Shown piece after piece: positions 8,787 through 34,848 of a stretch of 34,848 nucleotides of DNA. Position 1 is the first letter of the stretch; the number at the start of each line of letters is the position of its first letter. The DNA lies in IMG/VR virus record IMGVR_UViG_2651869781_000011. One strand, given 5' to 3'. Origin of the DNA: a virus. Its lineage: Duplodnaviria; Heunggongvirae; Uroviricota; Caudoviricetes. Made by a program: the position numbers and the translations under genes. Below the pieces are notes generated by a model. That model was not told the origin of the DNA. It did not search any database and was given only the letters and a program-made list of their open reading frames with translations.

Positions 8787-9092
8787 CTATGTTCCGGGAT
8801 GAAACCGATACATCCGCAGTCCGGTATAGAAAAAATCAGGCACTGCATCCTGCATTTCCCTGTTCTCGTACCAGTAGCCAACCAGTTGCATAAGACGCAG
8901 CTTTATCAGAGGTGTTATTACAAGCCCGGTCGTATCCTGCTCAGAAACAGTTTCATCGTAAAGCGTCCGGTTTAAAAACTTTTCAGCCTCTTCCCTGGCA
9001 GCAGCCAGATACATCATAAGAAGAGAATTCTCCTGTTCATTGTCATCATCAATCCGGCACTGAACACGAAGCTCTTCCAGAGTGGGCATCAT
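8787..9092 (-). CDS. Head-tail connector protein (gp6-like)
   Basis: 101 aa, acidic N-terminus; position after capsid gene. Confidence 0.55.
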   Translation of the reverse strand: MMPTLEELRVQCRIDDDNEQENSLLMMYLAAAREEAEKFLNRTLYDETVSEQDTTGLVITPLIKLRLMQLVGYWYENREMQDAVPDFFYTGLRMYRFHPGT

Positions 9093-17924: not shown

Positions 17925-17999
<75 letters not shown>

Positions 18000-18002
18000 A
18001 TA

Positions 18003-18078
<76 letters not shown>

Positions 18079-18374: not shown

Positions 18375-19196
18375 CTATCGCGTTACCCTTTTTAACTGCC
18401 GCTCCGCCCATGCCTCTTCAATGTCAAACCGAACCACCAACGTATCGTAAAAGCGTTTCACTGATTTTTTCCACGTATCAAGCGTGATAGCACTCGTCAC
18501 TTTGCATATGGCATTAAATGCCTCCGTTGATGGCAGTCTTTCATAGCCCCGACCACCACAACGCTGGCAGTTCCTGATTACAGGCATACCCTGTTTTTCC
18601 GACTCTTTACGATGAATGGCAACACCACGCCCACGGCAGTCTTTACAGGCAGTGGAAATCTCCCCCTTCCCTTTACATTCAGGACAGGAAACTTTCACCA
18701 CCTCCCGGATTTTTTTCCATTCTTCCCAGTAAGACGGATACACACCCTTCGTACACTTTGCCCATACTGGCGGCTTGCCATCCGGATACTGAACCTTGTT
18801 TGTAAAAACTTCGCTTTCAATAAATTTTTCCCCATGGCAACAAGGGCACTGCTTTTTACTCGCTGCGCTGCGGGCATAATCCTCAAAAGCATACGAAGCC
18901 ATAATGCGCATCACTGCCGGTTTTATTTCTGCCGGAAGTTTTCTTAACGCCGCCACGCGATCGCACTGACTTAATGCATAATCTGCCAATAATTCTGTTG
19001 CCCGCGCCCTGTCATTCATACTAATGCCCATTTTCCCCAGGAACGCAGAAAATCCCATCTCAGCCCGGTTTTGTGTCATACCCTGCGCAGCCATCACATC
19101 AGTGATACTCAGCGCATCTTTTGACGTCGAGACGGATGCATCAGTCAGGCCAGGCGATTTTGGGGAGTAGTATTTCGGTAAATCTTCCAGCTTCAT
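18375..19196 (-). CDS. Q: Late antiterminator Q (lambda Q family, Zn-binding)
   Basis: 273 aa; shares HSPKSP, DVMAAxGM, Cys clusters and C-terminal ...YDxLVV... with lambda Q as recalled; precedes PR'/tRNAs/lysis genes. Confidence 0.8.
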   Translation of the reverse strand: MKLEDLPKYYSPKSPGLTDASVSTSKDALSITDVMAAQGMTQNRAEMGFSAFLGKMGISMNDRARATELLADYALSQCDRVAALRKLPAEIKPAVMRIMASYAFEDYARSAASKKQCPCCHGEKFIESEVFTNKVQYPDGKPPVWAKCTKGVYPSYWEEWKKIREVVKVSCPECKGKGEISTACKDCRGRGVAIHRKESEKQGMPVIRNCQRCGGRGYERLPSTEAFNAICKVTSAITLDTWKKSVKRFYDTLVVRFDIEEAWAERQLKRVTR

Positions 19197-21393: not shown

Positions 21394-22500
21394 TCAAACA
21401 ATCTGGAAAATATTTCTTGGATTTGTAATAGGTCTGTTGATGGAGAACAACTCACGAATTAAATCTTGGCTCAAGCCAGTTTTCATAAGAATTCTTAGCC
21501 AGGTTGCATCATCCAGCATTTCAATCGCCTCGGCCAGCATGCCGGGTTCTTCAGGGCGCAAAAGTTCATCACCAGGTTCAACTCTCGTATACCCTCTGGA
21601 ATTAAGATGCATATAGCCAGTTCTTGCCTGTTCCTGGGTCAATAAGCCTAATGCGCTGGCTCGATAAATACACATTTTAAGGCTGATTTTCCATCTAAGT
21701 TTAAATTCAACCAGAGCATTCCAGTCGAATTGCTTACCTCGTATTCGAGGAAATTCTTTAATGAAAGATAACCTGGGAACTAATAAGGCGCTCGAAAAGT
21801 GATCGGCTTGTGATTCCGTAAGTTTATCACCTGTCGTTATGCCCTCATGCATTACTAAATGCCCTAATTCATGACCTAAATCAGAGCGAAATCTACATAT
21901 GCTTTTTTTAACATTGTTCCTGATGATAACAGGCCTGTTATTGTGAACAGTAAAAGCATCAACACGATCATCGACTCCCGTAACATGCGCAACGATTACC
22001 CCTAAACTCTCCGCCAATTTAACCATTGATGATATAGGGCCAAGACCTAAATTCCAGGCACGGCGACAATCTTCTGCCACTCGCTCAATATCATTCGGAG
22101 TAAGTAATTCAGCCCCTGGGTGCTCCGGTATGTTAACGTCAGGAAATTCGATTTCACCTTCAACAGCAGAAATTATAATATTAAGAATCTCAGCCCTGGC
22201 CAATACACTATTAGTCAGCGTTTGAGTCCTGGACTTCTTACTCCGAAAATGGCAGACATCACTTTCCAGAGCGTATTTTCGTTCAGTAAAAAGAAAACTG
22301 GACTTAATCATAAGCGCTGAAGATATTAACTCAAGACATTGCTCCGATGGCCTGCACCCCTTCTCCAGTTTGCTAACGAATTGCTTTGTCTTGCCAATTT
22401 TTTCGGCTAACTCTTCACAAGAAAGCCCAACAGCCATTCTCGCTAGTTTGAGCTTATCACCCCGATACTCAGTGAAGTTATTCACCTGATGTTCCATCAC
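21394..22500 (-). CDS. XRE-family HTH fused to ImmA/IrrE-type zinc metallopeptidase (COG2856-like)
   Basis: 368 aa; N-terminal HTH (KLKLARMAVGLSCEELAEKIGKTKQFVSKLEKG); HEXXH motif HELGHLVMHE; AT-rich; start overlaps upstream gene by ~20 nt. Confidence 0.75.
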   Translation of the reverse strand: MMEHQVNNFTEYRGDKLKLARMAVGLSCEELAEKIGKTKQFVSKLEKGCRPSEQCLELISSALMIKSSFLFTERKYALESDVCHFRSKKSRTQTLTNSVLARAEILNIIISAVEGEIEFPDVNIPEHPGAELLTPNDIERVAEDCRRAWNLGLGPISSMVKLAESLGVIVAHVTGVDDRVDAFTVHNNRPVIIRNNVKKSICRFRSDLGHELGHLVMHEGITTGDKLTESQADHFSSALLVPRLSFIKEFPRIRGKQFDWNALVEFKLRWKISLKMCIYRASALGLLTQEQARTGYMHLNSRGYTRVEPGDELLRPEEPGMLAEAIEMLDDATWLRILMKTGLSQDLIRELFSINRPITNPRNIFQIV

Positions 22501-23128
22501 TGCTCACATCCAAATCTTTATCCTTCGTACGCCGACGAAGAGGCACCTTATTAATCTCCGCTTCGTCAGGGAGTGTGTTATAATCAAGAGGCATAAGCGG
22601 CATCGATGCTGTAGATTGATGAGAAACTATACTAATCTGAGCACCATAAGTATTAAATCCAACAAGAGCTACCTCCCAACGAGGCAGTGTGGACTCTAAT
22701 TCACCATCGCCCTCTTCGGATAAAAAAGGCTCAGCTATGACTCGCCATGTAATATCTTGCTCAGCCTCAACATCACCAAACAATGAGAGCTGCTCATACT
22801 CTACTTTATTTCGACGCAGACGATGTTTCTTTTTGGGGTTATTAATGCAATCTTTGGTAAATTGTAGCGGAACTTTATTTAAAGCAACTACATAGTCCAA
22901 CCCCTTGGAAATCATCTCAAGGCCAGGAATTGCATCTTCATTTTGAATAAGATGATTTCTGACCCAATCATAAGCCCTTACACCTTCAGACCAGTTGCTG
23001 TCTAATGCGTGCTTATGATAGTACAGCTGCTCAAGTACGTTAGCGATCTCCGCCAACAAGTGGCGAACATAGTTTTCAGCAAGATAAGGTTGAAATTCCC
23101 AACAAGGAGCTAACTGATTTTCATTCAT
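22478..23128 (-). CDS. Unknown protein (216 aa), first gene of the two-gene cassette
   Basis: ATG at 23128; acidic, probably disordered C-terminus; no motif I recognise; AT-rich. Confidence 0.6.
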   Translation of the reverse strand: MNENQLAPCWEFQPYLAENYVRHLLAEIANVLEQLYYHKHALDSNWSEGVRAYDWVRNHLIQNEDAIPGLEMISKGLDYVVALNKVPLQFTKDCINNPKKKHRLRRNKVEYEQLSLFGDVEAEQDITWRVIAEPFLSEEGDGELESTLPRWEVALVGFNTYGAQISIVSHQSTASMPLMPLDYNTLPDEAEINKVPLRRRTKDKDLDVSSDGTSGE

Positions 23129-23293: not shown

Positions 23294-23449
23294 TTACTCC
23301 TCAGGTTCGTAAGCTGTGAAGACAGCGACCTCCGTCTGGCCGGTTCGGATTCGTACCTCGCAGAGGTCTTTCCTCGTTACCAGTGCCGTCACTATGACGG
23401 TTAAACAGATGACGATCAGGGCGATTAACATCGCCTTTTGCTGCTTCAT
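23294..23449 (-). CDS. hok: Hok/Gef-family type I toxin (HokD/RelF-like)
   Basis: 51 aa MKQQKAMLIALIVICLTVIVTALVTRKDLCEVRIRTGQTEVAVFTAYEPEE, checked codon by codon; below the 60-aa cutoff of the ORF track; AAGGAG SD. Confidence 0.85.
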   Translation of the reverse strand: MKQQKAMLIALIVICLTVIVTALVTRKDLCEVRIRTGQTEVAVFTAYEPEE

Positions 23450-23738
23450 AGCCTGCTTCTCCTTGACCTTTCGGTCCGTAAGAGGCTAATCTCTATGTGT
23501 CGCATAGATATGGCCTCAGATTAATGTTAAGCGTCTTGCAGGACGCGTAATGTTAACTGGGGCTTTTCTCTATCTGCCGTTGGTGTTCATGCCTGAGGCA
23601 GATAGCCTCAAGCACCCGCAGCAATTCTACTTAACTCTCCTTTTCCCGCAAATCGTTTTTATCCCCAGCGGCAAATCGAATACACCACCAGCGCCACCGC
23701 CATTGCAATTCCCATCGTTGCGAATGCTTCAGGCCAGG

Positions 23739-28262: not shown

Positions 28263-28670
28263 ATGAACGAGAAAACTTTAGGTCAACGAATTAGAGAAAG
28301 ACGCAAACAGGTTGGTTTAAGTCAAAACGATTTAAGCAAAGCCGCTGGCGTATCTGGCTCATCAATTTCACTATGGGAAAGCGACCATACAGCCCCGCGC
28401 GGGCAAAATTTGCATCGCCTGGCTGAGGTATTGCAATGTTCACCAACTTGGATACTGTTTGGTGACGAGGATAAAACACCAGATCCACCAGTTGCACTCA
28501 ACAGCGCCTTAGACTTATCGGAAGATGAGTTGGAGATGTTGCGATTGTATCGCGCACTTCCAAAATCAGAGCAGCAAGCACAAATCAGCGAACTCCGTGC
28601 CCGCGTTGAGAATTTTAATCGCCTATTCACCGAGCTACTAGAAGCTCGCAAACGTAACAAACATCAGTAA
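28263..28670 (+). CDS. dicA: XRE-family repressor (DicA-like, CI analogue)
   Basis: 135 aa; HTH LSQNDLSKAAGVSGSSISLWE; ...VLQCSPTWILFGDEDK... matches DicA as recalled. Confidence 0.8.
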   Translation: MNEKTLGQRIRERRKQVGLSQNDLSKAAGVSGSSISLWESDHTAPRGQNLHRLAEVLQCSPTWILFGDEDKTPDPPVALNSALDLSEDELEMLRLYRALPKSEQQAQISELRARVENFNRLFTELLEARKRNKHQ

Positions 28671-29394: not shown

Positions 29395-29416
29395 TAGCTA
29401 ACCAACGAGGCTAATA

Positions 29417-29824
29417 ATGGAATTTAAAGATTTACCAAAAGAAATCCAGACAATTGCTGCAACGACTCTCGGTGATAGTCTGGTGAAAATTGACCCGGCA
29501 TACACCAAAAAAGAAACCATCGATAATATGGTTCGTAATGTGCGCAATGCTTTTTCTGGGCTATATGGTTCTGATAATCAAAAGCAGGAAAGCGATGTTA
29601 ATAAACGGGTAATTTCTGTTTGCGTGAATGGCCATGTTCTTTCATCAATCAAAACAGAAACGGCGACAGTCTTCGATTGCCTTTGCATTGTACAGAGCCT
29701 TGTTGATGCCCTGTTTCGTTCAGTGAATTTAGAAAATGATGCAAATCTGCGAGGGCGCACAATAGCACATCCATATGCACATACTTTAGGCTCTGTGGAT
29801 ATCAAAGATCCCACAAATCTTTAA
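29417..29824 (+). CDS. Hypothetical protein (135 aa), AT-rich
   Basis: ATG 29417 with GAGG SD at 6-nt spacing; no recognisable motif. Confidence 0.5.
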   Translation: MEFKDLPKEIQTIAATTLGDSLVKIDPAYTKKETIDNMVRNVRNAFSGLYGSDNQKQESDVNKRVISVCVNGHVLSSIKTETATVFDCLCIVQSLVDALFRSVNLENDANLRGRTIAHPYAHTLGSVDIKDPTNL

Positions 29825-30035
29825 TGAAATAGTTAACGCGAATTGTACTTGCTCTTTCAGTTGCTTTCAGAATACGCGTTGAAACTGCTGGCGGTAATTT
29901 GGTATTCCATTTATTAAAATCATGCCCGGGAAAGTACTCTTCGAAAATACTTTTAACTGCAGACTCGCCTATTGAAATGCTGCTTACCATGCGATTTTGA
30001 TAAAGGCATTTAGCAATAAGAGTTGATTTTAACAT
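29802..30035 (-). CDS. Hypothetical protein (77 aa), convergent with the 135-aa ORF
   Basis: ATG 30035 with strong AGGAGG SD; 3' end overlaps the 135-aa ORF by 23 bp; AT-rich. Confidence 0.5.
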   Translation of the reverse strand: MLKSTLIAKCLYQNRMVSSISIGESAVKSIFEEYFPGHDFNKWNTKLPPAVSTRILKATERASTIRVNYFIKDLWDL

Positions 30036-30368
30036 TCACCCTCCTGAGGGTTGGTAATTAAGGAGTTCTCCACGGGTGAAATGGAGTGCGTGCGCCGGAC
30101 ACGGGTGAACATCCGGCACTGACAGTTTACTGAAAGGATATTTCTCTGAAAAGTCAGAGCATAACGCGAAAGCGCACGGCGAGGTTGCTGGTTCATAGAT
30201 AGCCTGTCGTTAAATTTTCGTCGACCGTGCGCTTCCGGTTGTGGCACTCCGCGAAATGGCGCGGCGGTAAGTATGGCGGGGTTATTCCTTCCCCCGTTGA
30301 GGACACCGGGTTGTCAGGTTGACCATACGCTTAAGTGACAACCCCGCTGCAACGCCCTCTGTTATCAA

Positions 30369-30425
30369 TTTTCTGTGACGTTTGGCGGCATCTGTTTGCC
30401 CATGAACTGATGTCCGCCCTTTTTA
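30369..30425 (+). ncRNA. dicF: DicF-like small RNA with intrinsic terminator
   Basis: TTTTCTGTGACGTTTGGCGG...CCGCCCTTTTT resembles Qin DicF as recalled; GGCGGCATC/GATGTCCGCC stem then T5; immediately upstream of dicB. Confidence 0.65.
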
Positions 30426-30593
30426 AAGTGAATTTTGTGATGCGGTGAATGCGGCTAAGCGCACGCGGAACAGTTAAAGCTAAAAACAGTGTTATGGGTG
30501 GATTCTCTGTATCCGGCGTTAATTGTTAACTGGTTAACGTCACCTGGAGGCACCAGGCACCGCATCACAAAACTCATTGTTGAGGACGCGATA

Positions 30594-30782
30594 ATGAAAA
30601 CGTTATTACCAAACGTTAATACGTCTGAAGGTTGTTTTGAAATTGGTGTCACTATCAGCAATCAGATATTTACTGAAGATGCCATTAATAAAAGAAAACA
30701 CGAACAGGAACTGCTAAATAAAATATGCATTGTTTCGATGCTGGCCCGTTTACGTCTGATGCAAACAGGATGCAGGCAATGA
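30594..30782 (+). CDS. dicB: Cell division inhibitor DicB
   Basis: 62 aa MKTLLPNVNTSEGCFEIGVTISN...ICIVSMLARLRLMQTGCRQ; GAGGA SD; matches DicB as recalled. Confidence 0.85.
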   Translation: MKTLLPNVNTSEGCFEIGVTISNQIFTEDAINKRKHEQELLNKICIVSMLARLRLMQTGCRQ

Positions 30783-30969
30783 ATACGGCATTTGTACTCG
30801 TTCTGACTGTTTTTTTGTTTCTGGTGAACCGATTGATCTTGTTATTGACATACATGACTCAATGGAAGAATGCATGACTGCCGCGGCAGAGCAAAAAATT
30901 CCCGGGAACTGTTATCCTGTCGACAAAATTATTCGCATGAACAATAACGAAATCCCGGCAGGCCTTTAA
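30779..30969 (+). pseudogene. ydfD: ydfD-like gene interrupted by a frameshift at a T7 tract
   Basis: ATG overlaps the dicB stop; frame stops after 32 codons; one extra T in the 30810-30816 run would give a continuous 63-codon ORF. Confidence 0.5.
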
Positions 30970-31061: not shown

Positions 31062-33542
31062 ATGAGTAAAGTCTTTATTTGCGCCGCCATTCCGGACGAA
31101 CAGGCAACAGCAGAAGGCGCCAAACCTGTGGCCACTGCCATTGAAGCAGGCGACGAACGCCGGGCAAGAGCCAAATTTAGCTGGTTATTTCTGGAACAAT
31201 ACCCGGAAGCTCAGGACTGTGCTTATAAATTTCTTGTCTGCGAGGATAAACCCGGCATGGCCCGCCCTGCTCTCGATTCCTGGGATTCCGAATATATGCA
31301 GGAAAACCGCTGGAATGAGGAGTCGGCTTCCTTTGTTCCGGTCGACCCTGAACCGGACGCAGAAATTGTTAACTTTAATCAGTTATCTGACGACAAGCGG
31401 GCTGCTGTCCTTGTCAGGTTCGGTACACATGAAAACATCACCGTGGATATGGTCATCAATGCAAGCGGGCTTCTCGGCGATGACGAGATGACGACTTTTG
31501 ATGGACACCTCGCTGAAGCAATTATCCGGACCAGAGAAATTAACGCCATGTATCCAGAGCGTCAGATTGAGTACATCAACGATGCCAGACGTGATTTAAA
31601 ACCAACAGCCAAATGGCCCGACGTTCAGGCGTATTTTCTCGAACGTAAAAAACGCATGGAAAAGGAGCGCAAAGAAGGTGGCGCATATAATTCCGTCGTC
31701 GATCTTGCCCGCGCCAGAGTCAACCGGCAAGGCACTGAAAACTCTGCAGGAAAAACTGACTCCGTAACTGCTGTCATTCGTCGCGAATACAGGCAGACAT
31801 GGAAAACACTGGATGAAGAACTGGCCTACGCTTTCTGGCCTGGTGATATTGATGCCGGAAACATTGACGGCAGCATCCATCGCTGGGCAAAAAATGAAGT
31901 TATCGACAAAGATCGCGAAGACTGGAAGCGTATTTCCGCATCAATGCGCAAACAACCTGATGCCGTTCGCTACGACCGTCAGACTATTTTTGGCCTTGTC
32001 CGTGAGCGTCCGATCGACATTCACAAAGATCCCGTGGCGCTGAACAAATACATCACTGAATACCTGGCGACAAAGGGCGTGTTTGAGGATGAAGAAACAG
32101 ACCAGAGCACTGCTGATATTCTCCAGCCGTCAGCAGCACAAACTGATGCAGTGGAAACTGAAGTATCTGATACCCAAAAAAATGAAAGCGCGCTGGAAAC
32201 TGAACCATCTGTAGAGCGTGAGGGGCCGTTCTACTTCCTCTTCACCGATAAGGATGGCGAAAAATATGGTCGTGCAAACAAACTTTCTGGTCTGAATAAG
32301 GCGCTGGCTGCCGGGGCTACTGAAATCACGAAAGAAGAATATTTTGCCCGTAAAAACGGCACGTACTCAGGTTCACAACAAAATACTGGTGCATCTGACA
32401 CGACCGCACAACCAGAGCCGGTAAAAGTTACCGCTGACGAAGTAAACAAAATTATGCAGGCAGCCAATATCAGCCAGCCTGACGCCGATAAGTTGCTTGC
32501 TGCCTCTCGCGGAGAATTTGTTGCAGGGATTAGCGACCCGAATGATCCGAAATGGGTGAAGGGGATTGAAACCCGCGATTCTGTAAACCAGAACCAGCAA
32601 GAATCGGAACAGAACGACCAGAAAGCGGAACAAAACAGCCAAAATGCGTTACAAAACGAGCCAGAAACGAAACAACCTGAGGCAGTAGCGCAACAGGAAC
32701 CGGAAAAAGTCTGCACCGCCTGCGGTCAGAGCGGTGGCGGCAACTGCCCTGATTGTGGCGCGGTGATGGGCGACGCAACATACCAGGAAACATTCGATGA
32801 AGAGAATCAGGTTGAAGTTCAGGAAAATGATCCGGAGGAAATGGAAGGCGCTGAACATCCACACAAGGAGAATGCTGGCAGCGCTCAGGACCACGCCAGC
32901 GATAATGAAACTGGTGAGACGGCAGATCCCTTAATTGTGGTGAACGGTCATCACGTTATCACATCCACCAGCAGAGTGTGGTACCACCTGATGATCGACC
33001 TTGAAACAATGGGAACCAACACCAATGCGCCCATCGTGGTTATTGGTGCGGTTTTCTTCGACCCACAAACAGGGGAAATCGGGCCAGTATTTTATATCGT
33101 TATCAGTCTGACTGACGCAATGAATACAGGGGCTGCTCCTGACGGTGGAACCATCAAATGGTGGCTGAAGCAGTCCAGTGAAGCCAGAGCTGCCATTTTA
33201 ACAGACCAGGTAAAACTGAAGGATGCCCTTTCGCGGTTTCGGGAGTTCATCAACGAATACTCAGATGAAAAATTCGTTCAGGTATGGGGTAATGGTGCAA
33301 CTTTCGATAACGCAATTTTGCGCACCTCATACGAACGTCTGGACATCCCCTGCCCGTGGCGCTACCACAACGATCGCGATGTACGCACAATCGTTGAGCT
33401 GGGAAAAACAATCGACTTTGATGCTAGAACCGTTATTCCATTCGAAGGCGTTCGCCACAATGCACTGGATGACGCCCGTCACCAGGCAAAATACGTTTCA
33501 GCAATCTGGCAAAAACTGATCCCGAATCCGGTTGATTTTTAA
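31062..33542 (+). CDS. RecE-like large protein with C-terminal DEDDh 3'-5' exonuclease domain
   Basis: 826 aa; GAGG SD; C-terminal motifs MIDLETMG, WGNGATFDNAIL, HNALDDARH; central ...KLLAASRGEFVAGISDPNDPKWVKG... recalls RecE; Cys cluster CTACGQSGGGNCPDCG. Confidence 0.8.
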   Translation: MSKVFICAAIPDEQATAEGAKPVATAIEAGDERRARAKFSWLFLEQYPEAQDCAYKFLVCEDKPGMARPALDSWDSEYMQENRWNEESASFVPVDPEPDAEIVNFNQLSDDKRAAVLVRFGTHENITVDMVINASGLLGDDEMTTFDGHLAEAIIRTREINAMYPERQIEYINDARRDLKPTAKWPDVQAYFLERKKRMEKERKEGGAYNSVVDLARARVNRQGTENSAGKTDSVTAVIRREYRQTWKTLDEELAYAFWPGDIDAGNIDGSIHRWAKNEVIDKDREDWKRISASMRKQPDAVRYDRQTIFGLVRERPIDIHKDPVALNKYITEYLATKGVFEDEETDQSTADILQPSAAQTDAVETEVSDTQKNESALETEPSVEREGPFYFLFTDKDGEKYGRANKLSGLNKALAAGATEITKEEYFARKNGTYSGSQQNTGASDTTAQPEPVKVTADEVNKIMQAANISQPDADKLLAASRGEFVAGISDPNDPKWVKGIETRDSVNQNQQESEQNDQKAEQNSQNALQNEPETKQPEAVAQQEPEKVCTACGQSGGGNCPDCGAVMGDATYQETFDEENQVEVQENDPEEMEGAEHPHKENAGSAQDHASDNETGETADPLIVVNGHHVITSTSRVWYHLMIDLETMGTNTNAPIVVIGAVFFDPQTGEIGPVFYIVISLTDAMNTGAAPDGGTIKWWLKQSSEARAAILTDQVKLKDALSRFREFINEYSDEKFVQVWGNGATFDNAILRTSYERLDIPCPWRYHNDRDVRTIVELGKTIDFDARTVIPFEGVRHNALDDARHQAKYVSAIWQKLIPNPVDF

Positions 33543-33608: not shown

Positions 33609-33860
33609 ATGTACGAATTAACTCTATCGCCAGCAGAGATTCAAGAGATCACGAAATACGAGCGATACACAAAACAGCAACACCAGTTAAGGCTGCACGG
33701 TATCCCATTTGTAATCGGTCCTAAAAACGAACCAATAGTTCTTCGCAGGGATATTCCACACGGACTGACTACGATGCCAAAAGCACCTGAACTGGTTTCC
33801 GCTGAACCCGATTTTGAGGCGCTGAACAATGGGAAGACCAAGAAAAAACAAAAAAGATAA
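33609..33860 (+). CDS. xis: Excisionase (lambda Xis-like)
   Basis: 83 aa MYELTLSPAEIQEI... with basic tail; 3' end overlaps the integrase start. Confidence 0.55.
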   Translation: MYELTLSPAEIQEITKYERYTKQQHQLRLHGIPFVIGPKNEPIVLRRDIPHGLTTMPKAPELVSAEPDFEALNNGKTKKKQKR

Positions 33861-34848
33861 TGCACTACCACCGCGTGTTAGATCGAATGGTTACAGTTAC
33901 GTGTGGAAACCCGAAGGAAGCACAAGAACTATAGGGCTCGGAAGAGTACGGGAAACCAGCGTAGCTAAAGTCTGGCAAAATTATGAACTGGAAAAAGCAA
34001 AACTCCACAACATAATGACCGTCGCTAAATTATGGCACATGTTTATGGACTCCCCTGCATTTACAGAACTGGCACCCCGAACCCAAAAAGATTATCGACA
34101 ACATCAGAGGGCGTTGCTGGCGGTATTCGGTAAAGTGCTTGCTGATAATGTAAAAATTGAGCAAGTAAGAATTTTCATGGATAAGCGGGGACTTGAGAGC
34201 AAGACCCAGGCAAACCATGAGCTGGCAAGCCTGAGTCGCGTATACGGATGGGGATATGAGCGTGGGTATGTGAAAAATAATCCATGCAAAGGCGTCAGAA
34301 AATTCACGCTTAAAGCCCGCACTGTTTACATAACCGATGAACAGTATGCGGCGATATACGCGGAAGCAATTCCACAGTTACGCATTGCAATGGAGATTTC
34401 CTATCTTTGTGCGGCAAGGCTCGGTGATGTTCTCGAGCTGAAATGGCAGGATATTATGGATAAAGGGATCTACATTGAGCAAAACAAAACAGGCACCAAA
34501 CAAATCAAGGAATGGTCTCCGCGATTACGTACGGCGATCCAGTTAGCCCGAAATGTATCTTCCGGCATATGCGAGTATGTGATCAGCACAACCAAAGGCG
34601 GGAAAGTCATCGCTAAAACGCTGAACAACTGGTGGAATCAGGCTAAACGCGCAGCCGAGCAAAAAGCAGGCGTTCCGTTCGGATGTAATTTTCATGACAT
34701 AAAAGCCAAAGGGATTTCAGATTATGAAGGCAGCAGCCGCGACAAACAAATTTTCAGTGGGCATAAAACAGAAAACCAGGTGTTGATTTATGATCGCAAA
34801 ACAAAAATCACCCCAACACTGGATTTGCCGCTTGTGGTCAGTAAGTAG
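33829..34848 (+). CDS. int: Tyrosine integrase (lambda Int family), complete
   Basis: 339 aa MGRPRKNKKDNALPPRVRSNGYSYVW...; C-terminal ...GHKTENQVLIYDRK with catalytic Tyr; stop at the last base of the window. Confidence 0.9.
   Translation: MGRPRKNKKDNALPPRVRSNGYSYVWKPEGSTRTIGLGRVRETSVAKVWQNYELEKAKLHNIMTVAKLWHMFMDSPAFTELAPRTQKDYRQHQRALLAVFGKVLADNVKIEQVRIFMDKRGLESKTQANHELASLSRVYGWGYERGYVKNNPCKGVRKFTLKARTVYITDEQYAAIYAEAIPQLRIAMEISYLCAARLGDVLELKWQDIMDKGIYIEQNKTGTKQIKEWSPRLRTAIQLARNVSSGICEYVISTTKGGKVIAKTLNNWWNQAKRAAEQKAGVPFGCNFHDIKAKGISDYEGSSRDKQIFSGHKTENQVLIYDRKTKITPTLDLPLVVSK

What the first reader, a model, noticed from the sequence alone, without database searches (positions are those of the whole stretch)
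31062..33542. RecE-like protein carrying a DnaQ-type DEDDh exonuclease domain, with no RecT annealase nearby
The C-terminal ~200 aa carry the three DEDDh motifs of 3'-5' exonucleases, not the PD-(D/E)XK nuclease fold known for Rac RecE. The central region resembles RecE and contains a four-Cys cluster. The next genes are xis and int, so there is no RecT-like partner. This suggests a different recombination or defence-related nuclease architecture at the exo position.
Basis: partly seen in the sequence, partly recalled or inferred. Interest (0 to 1): 0.55.

Follow-up and report, generated by a model that had tools for sequence, protein, structure and literature searches.

The report
RecE-scaffold prophage exonuclease with DEDDh head
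This is an intact copy of a very common but never characterised E. coli prophage gene (the YdfE family), which joins the front part of the RecE recombination exonuclease to a T4 DexA-like 3'-5' exonuclease and, unlike RecE, never has an annealing partner next to it.

Summary
ORF 31062-33542 (+) encodes 826 aa. Its last ~185 aa are a DEDDh exonuclease (Pfam Rv2179c-like, E=1.7e-69; D646, E648, D749, H799, D804). The closest solved structure is T4 DexA. Residues 262-626 are homologous to RecE 278-592, including the CxxC-x7-CxxC cluster. There is no PD-(D/E)XK domain. No RecT, Red-beta, Erf or Gam was found anywhere in the window, and xis and int follow directly.

The architecture is not new to databases. 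Identical proteins are named "exonuclease" or "3'-5' exoribonuclease". PHROG 2082 covers the full length, and newer Pfam lists YdfE_N and YdfE_C. K-12 Qin ydfE is a truncated copy. The DEDDh head DNA occurs in 4205 of 5426 complete E. coli genomes, against 1743 for the RecE head.

New here: the heads are swapped at a conserved linker. In my sample, 125 non-redundant DEDDh loci had no annealase, and all 7 PD-(D/E)XK loci had recT directly downstream.

I found no published function. My best guess is an annealase-independent 3'-5' DNA-end exonuclease made during lytic growth. It is a moderately interesting, catalogued but uncharacterised variant.

The parts
31062..33542 (+). Whole gene, 826 aa: YdfE-family prophage exonuclease (RecE-type scaffold plus DEDDh head)
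   Evidence: ORF listing. PHROG 2082 'exonuclease' matched 1-826 over 1-823/823. A 100% identical protein, P0001, carries precomputed Pfam PF27430, PF16473 and PF27432. PF27430 and PF27432 are named YdfE_N and YdfE_C.
31062..31676 (+). YdfE_N domain (aa 1-205), a confidently folded alpha/beta domain of unknown function
   Evidence: AF2 pLDDT ~95. 67% identical to the K-12 Qin pseudogene ydfE over aa 1-256. No PDB relative by profile search. Not homologous to the RecE N-terminus by hhalign, which matches only from aa ~180 onward.
31794..32081 (+). Helical middle domain (aa 245-340), shared with RecE
   Evidence: AF2 pLDDT ~96. hhalign probability 95.6% against RecE aa 198-337. BLASTP against RecE 278-337.
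32220..32357 (+). Small beta-hairpin/helix domain (aa 387-432, GPFYF...GRANK...EEYxARKNG)
   Evidence: AF2 pLDDT ~93. dN/dS 0.03-0.05 against mEp460 and Tritos. Conserved in proteins with other C-terminal heads.
32373..32969 (+). Acidic, Q/E/N-rich, mostly disordered linker (aa 438-636). Its DNA (32486-32938) is the segment shared with recE, and the head exchange occurs at its end.
   Evidence: pLDDT below 50 over most of it. Composition. blastn: window gene nt 1425-1877 matches K-12 recE nt 1365-1775 at 77%, and homology stops at RecE aa 592. The chimeric gene in L009 overlaps both parents here.
32712..32756 (+). CxxC-x7-CxxC zinc-knuckle-like cluster (C551, C554, C562, C565)
   Evidence: Read from the sequence. 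Conserved in RecE. Weak NCBIfam zinc-ribbon match, E=0.0094. pLDDT 65-73.
32979..33527 (+). DEDDh 3'-5' exonuclease domain (aa 640-822). Catalytic codons: D646 32997-32999, E648 33003-33005, D749 33306-33308, H799 33456-33458, D804 33471-33473.
   Evidence: Pfam PF16473, E=1.7e-69. phmmer against PDB finds T4 DexA 8kel at E=7.9e-8. AF2 pLDDT ~97. Foldseek top hits are 8kel/8ken at E~1e-9, then REXO2, RNase T and Orn. The five catalytic residues are kept in 78-81 of 88 aligned sequences; 8 rows lack the domain. dN/dS ~0.15 at dS ~1.15.
33609..33860 (+). Excisionase-type gene (DUF4224), immediately downstream
   Evidence: Pfam PF13986, E=1.8e-9. Annotated as such in identical and related prophages.
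33829..34848 (+). Tyrosine integrase, the last gene of the prophage arm
   Evidence: Pfam PF00589. In NZ_CP125889 and NZ_CP180607 the next gene is chromosomal yccA.
30594..30782 (+). dicB (cell-division inhibitor), upstream on the same strand
   Evidence: Pfam DicB, E=3e-38. The order dicA, ydfA/B/C, dicB, ydfD, exonuclease, xis, int is conserved in phages mEp460 and Tritos and in K-12 Qin.
28263..28670 (+). DicA/CI-type repressor, the first gene on this strand of the arm
   Evidence: Pfam HTH_3, E=1.2e-16, and Phage_CI_repr. Annotated dicA or CI repressor in relatives.

Best explanation
The gene encodes a modular phage exonuclease of the YdfE family.

Shown here:
- A folded N-terminal module comprises YdfE_N, a helical domain shared with RecE, and a small beta domain.
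- A ~200-residue acidic, largely disordered linker carrying a four-Cys knuckle tethers this module to an intact DEDDh (DnaQ-like) exonuclease head.
- The closest solved relative of the head is the T4 DNA exonuclease DexA.
- The gene is a mosaic relative of recE. The two share the centre and linker, and the nuclease head, together with everything downstream, has been exchanged at the end of the conserved linker.
- The PD-(D/E)XK head comes with recT. The DEDDh head is followed directly by xis and int.

Inferred:
- The gene is transcribed with dicB from the repressor-controlled early operon, so the protein is made after induction or infection and not in the lysogen.
- The head removes nucleotides from free 3' ends by two-metal catalysis. 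DNA is the more likely substrate because DexA is the nearest relative.
- The N-terminal module supplies targeting or assembly.
- It works without a phage annealase, so it is not a RecET or Red-type two-component recombinase.
- Its likeliest job is trimming or degrading 3' DNA ends during lytic DNA metabolism, either alongside host recombination functions or against competing linear DNA.
For: Domain identity:
- Pfam hit and catalytic motifs.
- PDB sequence hit to DexA.
- AF2 model and Foldseek search.
- Catalytic residues kept across the family.
- Purifying selection on the head, dN/dS ~0.15.

RecE relationship and exchange point:
- BLASTP against RecE and hhalign.
- DNA chimera analysis.
- Module map: P0124 is RecE aa 1-455 (99% and 91% identity) plus a DEDDh head. 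P0157 and P0139 are scaffolds with a PD-(D/E)XK head.
- dS is ~0.2 in the middle of the gene and ~1.0 at both ends.

Annealase coupling:
- 154 DEDDh loci (125 non-redundant) have no RecT, Red-beta or Erf. All 7 PD-(D/E)XK loci have recT directly downstream.
- Individual contexts agree.
- recE and recT are annotated together under the RecE-head matches listed.
- The window itself has none.

Operon position. No promoter-like site lies between 30877 and 31062 on the + strand.

The gene is intact in the isolated phages mEp460 and Tritos.

DexA is a 3'-5' DNA exonuclease (T4 record annotation; PMC12153337).
Against: - No experiment on this protein was found. Searches for ydfE, Rv2179c-like and PF16473 returned nothing functional.
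- The Pfam family is named after an RNase (M. tuberculosis Rv2179c), and DEDDh enzymes often accept both RNA and DNA, so the substrate is not settled.
- Expression from the early operon rests on gene order and a consensus scan only.
- The annealase panel covered RecT, Red-beta and Erf by tblastn. Sak, Sak4 and gp2.5-type annealases were not searched in the survey loci. Those loci are mostly E. coli prophages with heads at least 70% identical to this one.
- Copies are often broken: K-12 ydfE by an IS2 insertion, and the PPompW copies by a frameshift. The gene is therefore dispensable for the host.
Confidence: 0.6

Rival explanations
1. It is a defence or inter-phage competition nuclease. Like the E. 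coli DexA homologue EcD (the 'HREX' proposal), the head would selectively digest the modified DNA of incoming T-even-type phages, or other foreign linear DNA.
For: PMC12153337 reports that EcD digests 5hmC T4 DNA, does not digest unmodified dsDNA, and protects against T4 when plasmid-borne. EcD matches a stand-alone 189-aa protein of the same family, collinear with this head and 38% identical. The window's prophage carries other defence-type cargo, an RmrT-like ORF and hok/sok.
Against: - The gene lies downstream of dicB in the repressor-side operon, with no promoter-like site in front. This fits poorly with protecting a lysogen.
- The residues the paper ties to 5hmC recognition and dimer state differ. 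DexA D90 corresponds to D721 here (EcD has Ala), W152 to H769, and D169 to T783; the last alignment is uncertain.
- PADLOC gives only a generic Cas-associated DEDDh match at E=3.7e-5.
Confidence: 0.15
2. It is an RNA exonuclease, like RNase AS (Rv2179c), oligoribonuclease or ISG20. It would trim host or phage RNA 3' ends or short oligonucleotides during phage development, or restrict RNA phages.
For: The Pfam family is named after the Rv2179c exoribonuclease. After DexA, the Foldseek neighbours are REXO2, RNase T, Orn and ERI. A 2026 preprint reports prophage-borne DEDDh exonucleases that block RNA phages (PMC13344964).
Against: The nearest relative by both sequence and fold is the DNA exonuclease DexA. 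The head is interchangeable with a DNA exonuclease on the same scaffold. The preprint's set was limited to proteins under 500 aa and was not shown to include this family.
Confidence: 0.12
3. It is still a recombination exonuclease of a two-component system. The annealase would be supplied in trans by another prophage such as Rac, or would be an unrecognised activity of the N-terminal module.
For: - The scaffold is shared with RecE.
- E. coli genomes carry a median of 2 copies of the head, and 1743 of 5426 genomes also carry recE-recT.
- The same YdfE_N/YdfE_C scaffold is fused to a third C-terminal domain. That domain has sub-threshold Rad52_Rad22 hits in 5 of 5 members, and one locus has a weak Gam match upstream.
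Against: A 3'-5' exonuclease leaves 5' overhangs, not the 3' tails that RecT or Red-beta load onto (established mechanism of lambda Exo and RecE; review PMC11611040). None of 125 non-redundant loci has an annealase in cis. Fold and profile tests did not confirm the third domain as an annealase.
Confidence: 0.08
4. It is a decaying passenger gene with no current function, retained only by linkage to xis and int.
For: Copies are often disrupted, in K-12 Qin ydfE and in the PPompW frameshifts.
Against: This copy is intact. The head shows dN/dS ~0.15 at dS ~1.15, and the catalytic residues are conserved. The gene is intact in the isolated phages mEp460 and Tritos. The head DNA is present at 9002 places in E. 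coli genomes.
Confidence: 0.05

Closest known systems
RecE (exonuclease VIII) of the Rac prophage, with RecT
   Same: It sits in the same slot in the prophage arm, between the division-inhibitor genes and xis-int. It shares the helical middle domain and the acidic linker with the four-Cys cluster: aa 262-626 align with RecE 278-592, with near-identity from aa ~470. Natural chimeras exist that join RecE aa 1-455 to the DEDDh head.
   Different: The nuclease head is DEDDh (3'-5' type), not PD-(D/E)XK (5'-3'). The N-terminal domain is YdfE_N, not Exonuc_VIII. There is no recT, ralR or rcbA downstream. The NCBIfam ExoVIII equivalog score is 279.9 against a cut-off of 1269.
Bacteriophage T4 DexA (exonuclease A; PDB 8KEL/8KEN)
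   Same: It is the closest solved relative by sequence (E=7.9e-8) and by fold (Foldseek E~1e-9). All five DEDDh catalytic residues align.
   Different: Identity is only 28-31%. DexA is a 227-aa stand-alone protein of a virulent phage. Here the domain is the C-terminal head of an 826-aa protein of a temperate phage. DexA W152 and D169 are not conserved.
EcD / 'HREX' E. coli DexA homologue (PMC12153337)
   Same: It belongs to the same Rv2179c-like/DexA family and is collinear with this head. The 189-aa protein matching the published EcD primer and its Ala78 is 38% identical.
   Different: EcD is a stand-alone protein. This head has Asp at the Ala78 position and His at the Trp132 position. EcD's identification rests on the forward primer and Ala78 only; the reverse primer did not match exactly.
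YdfE of the K-12 Qin cryptic prophage (Pfam YdfE_N, YdfE_C; PHROG 2082)
   Same: It is the same gene family in the same position, after dicB and ydfD. Identity is 67% over aa 1-256. The Pfam families are precomputed on the identical protein. PHROG 2082 matches the full length.
   Different: K-12 ydfE is a pseudogene truncated by IS2 and so lacks the linker and the DEDDh head. The window's copy is complete.
Mycobacterium tuberculosis Rv2179c (RNase AS), name-giver of Pfam PF16473
   Same: It belongs to the same Pfam family (E=1.7e-69 to the family model).
   Different: That enzyme is a small bacterial exoribonuclease (my own knowledge, not tested here). It did not appear in the PDB sequence search at E<=0.01 or among the 50 best fold matches.

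Membership tests
DEDDh (DnaQ-like) 3'-5' exonucleases / Pfam PF16473 Rv2179c-like | Family model matched above the curated cut-off | tested here: met
   233.5 bits against a cut-off of 27, E=1.7e-69, aa 642-816 covering model positions 2-177 of 177.
DEDDh (DnaQ-like) 3'-5' exonucleases / Pfam PF16473 Rv2179c-like | Exo I (DxE), Exo II (D) and Exo III (H-x4-D) catalytic residues | tested here: met
   D646, E648, D749, H799 and D804 align with DexA D7, E9, D119, H186 and D191. They are conserved in 78-81 of 88 aligned sequences.
DEDDh (DnaQ-like) 3'-5' exonucleases / Pfam PF16473 Rv2179c-like | RNase H-like alpha/beta fold of DEDD exonucleases | tested here: met
   AF2 pLDDT ~97 for aa 640-822. 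Foldseek matches DexA, REXO2, RNase T, Orn and ExoX at probability 1.00.
DEDDh (DnaQ-like) 3'-5' exonucleases / Pfam PF16473 Rv2179c-like | 3'-5' exonuclease activity and its substrate (DNA or RNA) | not testable with these tools
   Needs purified protein and end-labelled substrates.
RecE / exodeoxyribonuclease VIII (NCBIfam NF007259 equivalog) | Whole-protein score above the equivalog cut-off | tested here: not met
   279.9 bits against a cut-off of 1269. Only aa 240-626 match, to model positions 263-603 of 877.
RecE / exodeoxyribonuclease VIII (NCBIfam NF007259 equivalog) | C-terminal PD-(D/E)XK nuclease domain (Pfam DUF3799; RecE aa ~564-866) | tested here: not met
   No Pfam DUF3799 hit. 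BLASTP homology to RecE stops at RecE aa 592. tblastn of RecE 593-866 against the window gives nothing better than E=0.69. No PD-(D/E)XK structure appears among the fold matches.
RecE / exodeoxyribonuclease VIII (NCBIfam NF007259 equivalog) | Homologous middle domain and linker with the four-Cys cluster | tested here: met
Two-component phage recombinase (exonuclease plus annealase, RecET/Red type) | A single-strand annealing protein encoded next to the exonuclease | tested here: not met
   None in the window. None in 125 non-redundant DEDDh-head loci, against 7 of 7 PD-(D/E)XK-head loci. The panel was limited to RecT, Red-beta and Erf.
Two-component phage recombinase (exonuclease plus annealase, RecET/Red type) | 5'-3' dsDNA exonuclease that leaves 3' tails | not testable with these tools
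   The fold predicts the opposite polarity. Polarity itself needs an assay.
YdfE family (Pfam PF27430 YdfE_N + PF27432 YdfE_C; PHROG 2082) | Matches to the family models, and homology to K-12 YdfE | tested here: met
   The 100% identical protein P0001 carries precomputed PF27430 and PF27432 (names). PHROG 2082 matches the full length at E=0. Identity to K-12 ydfE is 67%. The local Pfam copy lacks these two models, so I did not rescore them myself.
HREX / EcD-type 5hmC-DNA-specific exonuclease (PMC12153337) | Non-Asp residue at DexA D90 (dimer state), Trp at DexA W152 and an acidic residue at D169 (5hmC recognition) | tested here: not met
   D721, H769 and T783 occupy those alignment columns. 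The W152 column is well anchored by the flanking N-x-RD-xRT motif. The D169 column is in a variable loop and is uncertain.

The most novel reading that the evidence does not exclude
The RecE/YdfE scaffold is a general platform that carries interchangeable catalytic heads: a PD-(D/E)XK 5'-3' exonuclease, a DEDDh 3'-5' exonuclease, and a third conserved ~280-aa domain. On this reading the DEDDh-headed form defines an annealase-independent phage DNA-end-processing pathway that has never been studied. Its head DNA is found in about three quarters of complete E. coli genomes, more than carry RecET.
Probability: 0.3. Interest if true: 0.65.

Novelty: new variant of a known kind. Interest (0 to 1): 0.42.

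Why it matters
RecET is a mainstay of recombineering, yet the function of RecE's N-terminal ~600 residues is still listed as unknown (PMC11611040).

This gene shows that the same scaffold naturally carries a nuclease head of a different fold, whose family degrades DNA or RNA from the 3' end. The annealase comes and goes with the head. The DEDDh form is also the commoner one in E. coli.

That makes two questions directly testable. What does the scaffold do, independent of the head? Why do so many temperate phages keep a 3'-5' exonuclease where lambda keeps exo-bet-gam?

The practical value is modest: correct annotation ('exodeoxyribonuclease VIII' is wrong for these genes) and a possible new enzyme for DNA-end engineering.

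Tried and rejected
1. EcD is not this protein. I asked whether the 'EcD' of PMC12153337 is simply the head of this protein. The published forward primer (MIDTET...) finds a stand-alone 189-aa gene with Ala78, 38% identical to this head. No locus carried both primers exactly. Rejected: EcD is a paralogue.

2. HREX-type 5hmC specificity does not transfer. The key residues are not conserved.

3. The third C-terminal head (P0153, P0162, P0164, P0215, P0227) is not confirmed as a Rad52/Red-beta-type annealase.
- For: sub-threshold Pfam Rad52_Rad22 hits in 5 of 5 members (best E=0.0026), a KKSLTDAxKKALSxLGF motif, and one locus with a weak Gam match upstream and Sipho_Gp157 downstream.
- Left as an unconfirmed lead.

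4. No own promoter was found. No promoter-like site precedes the gene, and the region has no more sites than shuffled sequence.

5. PADLOC gave only a generic Cas-associated DEDDh match.

6. The N-terminal module has no PDB relative by profile search.

7. Literature searches for ydfE, Rv2179c-like, PF16473, DUF5051 and RecE with DEDDh found no functional study of this family.

I reran it without that row.
Full report
**1. The observation**

- **C-terminal domain.** Pfam places an Rv2179c-like 3'-5' exoribonuclease domain (PF16473) at aa 642-816, with E=1.7e-69 and 233.5 bits against a cut-off of 27. There is a weak RNase_T match over the same stretch.
- **Catalytic motifs.** They are DLETMG (D646, E648), GATFDNAIL (D749) and HNALDD (H799, D804).
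- **RecE-like centre.** BLASTP against K-12 RecE aligns aa 262-626 with RecE 278-592 (E=2e-64). From aa ~470 the match is near-identical and includes the CxxC-x7-CxxC cluster. It ends where the RecE nuclease domain begins.
- **Not a RecE equivalog.** The NCBIfam exodeoxyribonuclease VIII model is matched only over its positions 263-603 of 877, at 279.9 bits against a cut-off of 1269.
- **No annealase in the window.** The next ORFs are a DUF4224 excisionase-type gene and a tyrosine integrase. Pfam scans of 20 ORFs between 18.4 and 34.8 kb find no annealase. tblastn of RecT, Red-beta, Erf, Gam, lambda Exo and the RecE nuclease domain against the whole window finds nothing better than E=0.05.

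Every factual part of the finding is confirmed.

**2. Where the window comes from, and how common the gene is**

The window is one arm of a lambdoid prophage of Escherichia.

- The gene is 100% identical in E. coli EPSSH018. The 20-34.8 kb stretch is 99.3% identical in strain PS1Thumoskin9, where integrase is followed by chromosomal yccA.
- The gene order on this strand is: DicA-type repressor, ydfA/B/C, a 135-aa ORF, dicB, a ydfD remnant, the exonuclease, xis, int.
- The same order occurs in the isolated phages mEp460 and Tritos, in the PPompW prophages, and in K-12 Qin.
- In Qin the gene at this position is the IS2-truncated pseudogene ydfE, which is 67% identical to aa 1-256 here.

The family is already catalogued.

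- The identical protein in the public collection is named 'exonuclease' and carries precomputed Pfam PF27430, PF16473 and PF27432. Close relatives are named '3'-5' exoribonuclease'. Another tool names the two new models YdfE_N and YdfE_C.
- PHROG 2082 ('exonuclease') matches the full length.
- The DNA of the DEDDh head alone is found in 4205 of 5426 complete E. coli genomes, at 9002 places, with a median of two per genome.
- The RecE PD-(D/E)XK head is found in 1743 genomes.

The protein is not rare. By genome count its head is commoner in E. coli than the textbook RecE head.

**3. Anatomy**

An AlphaFold2 model was built on 88 aligned sequences (mean pLDDT 77.9). It resolves the following parts:

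| Part | Residues | pLDDT |
|---|---|---|
| YdfE_N | 1-205 | ~95 |
| Helical domain | 245-340 | ~96 |
| Small beta-hairpin/helix domain | 387-432 | ~93 |
| Four-Cys knuckle | ~550-570 | 65-73 |
| DEDDh domain | 640-822 | ~97 |
| Disordered stretches | 346-383, 438-456, 490-546, 571-636 | below 50 |

- The helical domain is homologous to RecE 198-337 (hhalign probability 95.6%). YdfE_N is not homologous to the RecE N-terminus.
- YdfE_N has no relative in the PDB by profile search.
- Foldseek of the model against the PDB is led by T4 DexA (8KEL/8KEN, E~1e-9). REXO2, RNase T, oligoribonuclease and ERI enzymes follow, with ExoX lower down. No PD-(D/E)XK nuclease appears.
- phmmer against PDB sequences also finds only DexA (E=7.9e-8).
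- The five catalytic residues align with DexA D7, E9, D119, H186 and D191. They are conserved in 78-81 of the 88 aligned sequences, of which 8 lack the domain.
- The head evolves under purifying selection, with dN/dS ~0.15 at dS ~1.15 against mEp460, Tritos and a RecE-N chimera.

**4. A mosaic with interchangeable heads**

A search of 1.84 billion representative proteins, followed by a BLAST module map, shows the parts recombine freely.

- The N-terminus is either YdfE_N or the RecE-type Exonuc_VIII domain.
- The middle and linker are shared.
- The C-terminal head is DEDDh, PD-(D/E)XK (Pfam DUF3799), or a third conserved ~280-aa domain.
- P0124 is 99.6% and 91.5% identical to K-12 RecE over aa 1-277 and 278-455 respectively, and then carries a DEDDh head.
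- At the DNA level, nt 1-1820 of the P0124 gene match K-12 recE nt 1-1772. Its nt 1386-2466 match the window's gene through the stop codon and beyond. The two homologies overlap in the linker.
- The window's own homology to recE ends at RecE aa 592.
- Within the gene, dS is ~0.2 in the middle and ~1.0 at both ends. That is the signature of intragenic exchange.

The conserved but structurally disordered linker therefore looks like a recombination joint as much as a functional element. That last reading is inference.

**5. The annealase travels with the head**

I fetched loci by the shared linker and by the DEDDh head from species-representative genomes and from IMG/VR. I then scanned them by tblastn.

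| Head | Loci | RecT, Red-beta or Erf found |
|---|---|---|
| DEDDh | 154 (125 non-redundant) | 0 |
| PD-(D/E)XK | 7 | 7, all with recT directly downstream |

- After the DEDDh head there is a median of 1.4 kb to the contig end, which is room for xis and int only.
- Individual contexts agree:
  - A Rac-like arm (sieB, kilR, ydaE) with the RecE-N plus DEDDh gene runs straight into xis-int.
  - More distant DEDDh-headed genes (56-61% identical heads) are followed by an Exc-family excisionase. In the longer locus an integrase follows.
  - Scaffolds with a PD-(D/E)XK head are followed by RecT or a RecT-like protein (PHROG 561, E=3.5e-101).
- Limits: the annealase panel had only three families, and the sample is dominated by E. 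coli prophages.

**6. How it most likely works**

Shown:
- An intact, conserved DEDDh active site.
- A nearest relative that is a DNA 3'-5' exonuclease.
- A position at the exo slot of the repressor-side arm.
- No annealase.
- An intact gene in the isolated phages mEp460 and Tritos.

Inferred:
- Expression is with dicB after induction. No promoter-like site lies between 30877 and 31062, and the consensus scan is at background level.
- Nucleotides are removed from free 3' ends by two-metal catalysis.
- The N-terminal module supplies targeting or assembly through the long flexible linker.

A 3'-5' exonuclease leaves 5' overhangs, not the 3' tails used by RecT or Red-beta. The protein is therefore unlikely to be one half of a RecET/Red-type recombinase.

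T4 DexA is described as scavenging host DNA and acting in intron homing (PMC12153337; T4 record note). By analogy, I favour 3'-end trimming or degradation of linear DNA during lytic DNA metabolism. This would use host recombination functions, and the prophage supplies RusA.

My confidence is ~0.9 in the identity and architecture, and ~0.45 in this functional reading.

**7. Rivals**

(a) Defence or competition nuclease.
- PMC12153337 reports that the E. coli DexA homologue EcD digests 5hmC DNA and protects against T4.
- From the paper's primers, EcD corresponds to a stand-alone 189-aa protein with Ala78, 38% identical to this head.
- In this head the corresponding residues are D721, H769 and T783, not Ala, Trp and an acidic residue.
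- The gene's position in the operon argues against expression in lysogens.

(b) RNA exonuclease.
- The Pfam name and several structural neighbours are RNases.
- A 2026 preprint describes prophage DEDDh exonucleases active against RNA phages (PMC13344964).
- However, DexA is the nearest relative, and the head swaps with a DNA exonuclease.

(c) Annealase supplied in trans or hidden in the scaffold. This is possible but unsupported.

(d) Decaying passenger. The selection data contradict it.

**8. Comparison with known families**

- The protein is a member of the DEDDh/Rv2179c-like/DexA family and of the YdfE family.
- It is homologous to RecE in its middle and linker. It fails the RecE membership tests on whole-protein score, nuclease fold and RecT partner.
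- The annotation 'exodeoxyribonuclease VIII', still attached to several phage records, is therefore misleading.

**9. Novelty and verdict**

- The sequence family and its domain composition are already in the databases, so the architecture as such is not a discovery.
- I found no functional study.
- I believe three points have not been described: the strict coupling between head type and annealase, the exchange point in the conserved linker, and the numerical dominance of the DEDDh form over RecE in E. coli.
- I rate it a variant of a known kind, with moderate interest (0.42).

Noticed in passing
window 21394-23128 (-): A 216-aa ORF (22478-23128) has no Pfam match but matches PADLOC RmrT (E=4.6e-25). 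It is followed by a 368-aa HTH_3 plus Peptidase_M78/IrrE protein (21394-22500). This is a candidate toxin-antitoxin or defence pair in the nin region. In the 99%-identical prophage, PGAP calls only a 101-aa hypothetical protein there.
   Followed up: partly
proteins P0153, P0162, P0164, P0215, P0227; loci L190 5001-7337 and L191 5001-7226: A third kind of C-terminal head sits on the same YdfE_N/YdfE_C scaffold. It is a conserved ~280-aa domain (PHROG 2489/7838, labelled 'exonuclease') with the motif KKSLTDAxKKALSxLGF and sub-threshold Pfam Rad52_Rad22 hits in 5 of 5 members. A Sipho_Gp157 gene follows it, and in L190 a weak Gam match precedes it. Fold, PDB and hhalign tests did not confirm an annealase.
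   Followed up: partly
window 31062-33542, compared with L004, L005 and L009: Synonymous divergence is very uneven along the gene: ~1.0 in YdfE_N and in the DEDDh head, and ~0.2 in aa 245-636. This indicates recent exchange of the middle segment between otherwise diverged genes.
   Followed up: yes
window 23447-23617 (-): The sok antitoxin RNA (Rfam RF01794, 102.9 bits) lies next to a hok-type gene. The related prophage annotates hokD there.
   Followed up: no
window 17928-18078 (-): Two tRNA genes lie just beyond the 273-aa ORF with the antitermination protein Q domain (18375-19196). The related prophage has tRNA-Arg, tRNA-Arg and tRNA-Ile at the corresponding place.
   Followed up: no
window 29400-30900 (+): dicB is present (30594-30782). 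No DicF RNA reached the Rfam gathering score anywhere in the window, although Tritos and K-12 Qin have DicF between ydfC and dicB. Here a 135-aa ORF of unknown family (29417-29824) and an opposite-strand 77-aa ORF lie in part of that interval. The ydfD (DUF1482) reading frame upstream of the exonuclease is annotated as frameshifted in the identical prophages.
   Followed up: no
loci L194, L199, L209, L210, L212, L215 (IMG/VR contigs): These carry a stand-alone 189-aa DEDDh gene (MIDTETLGNG...) that matches the published EcD forward primer and Ala78. The published reverse primer differs by one base from the 3' end inferred from the protein sequence (not checked against the locus DNA), so the cloned variant or its C-terminus differs slightly.
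   Followed up: partly
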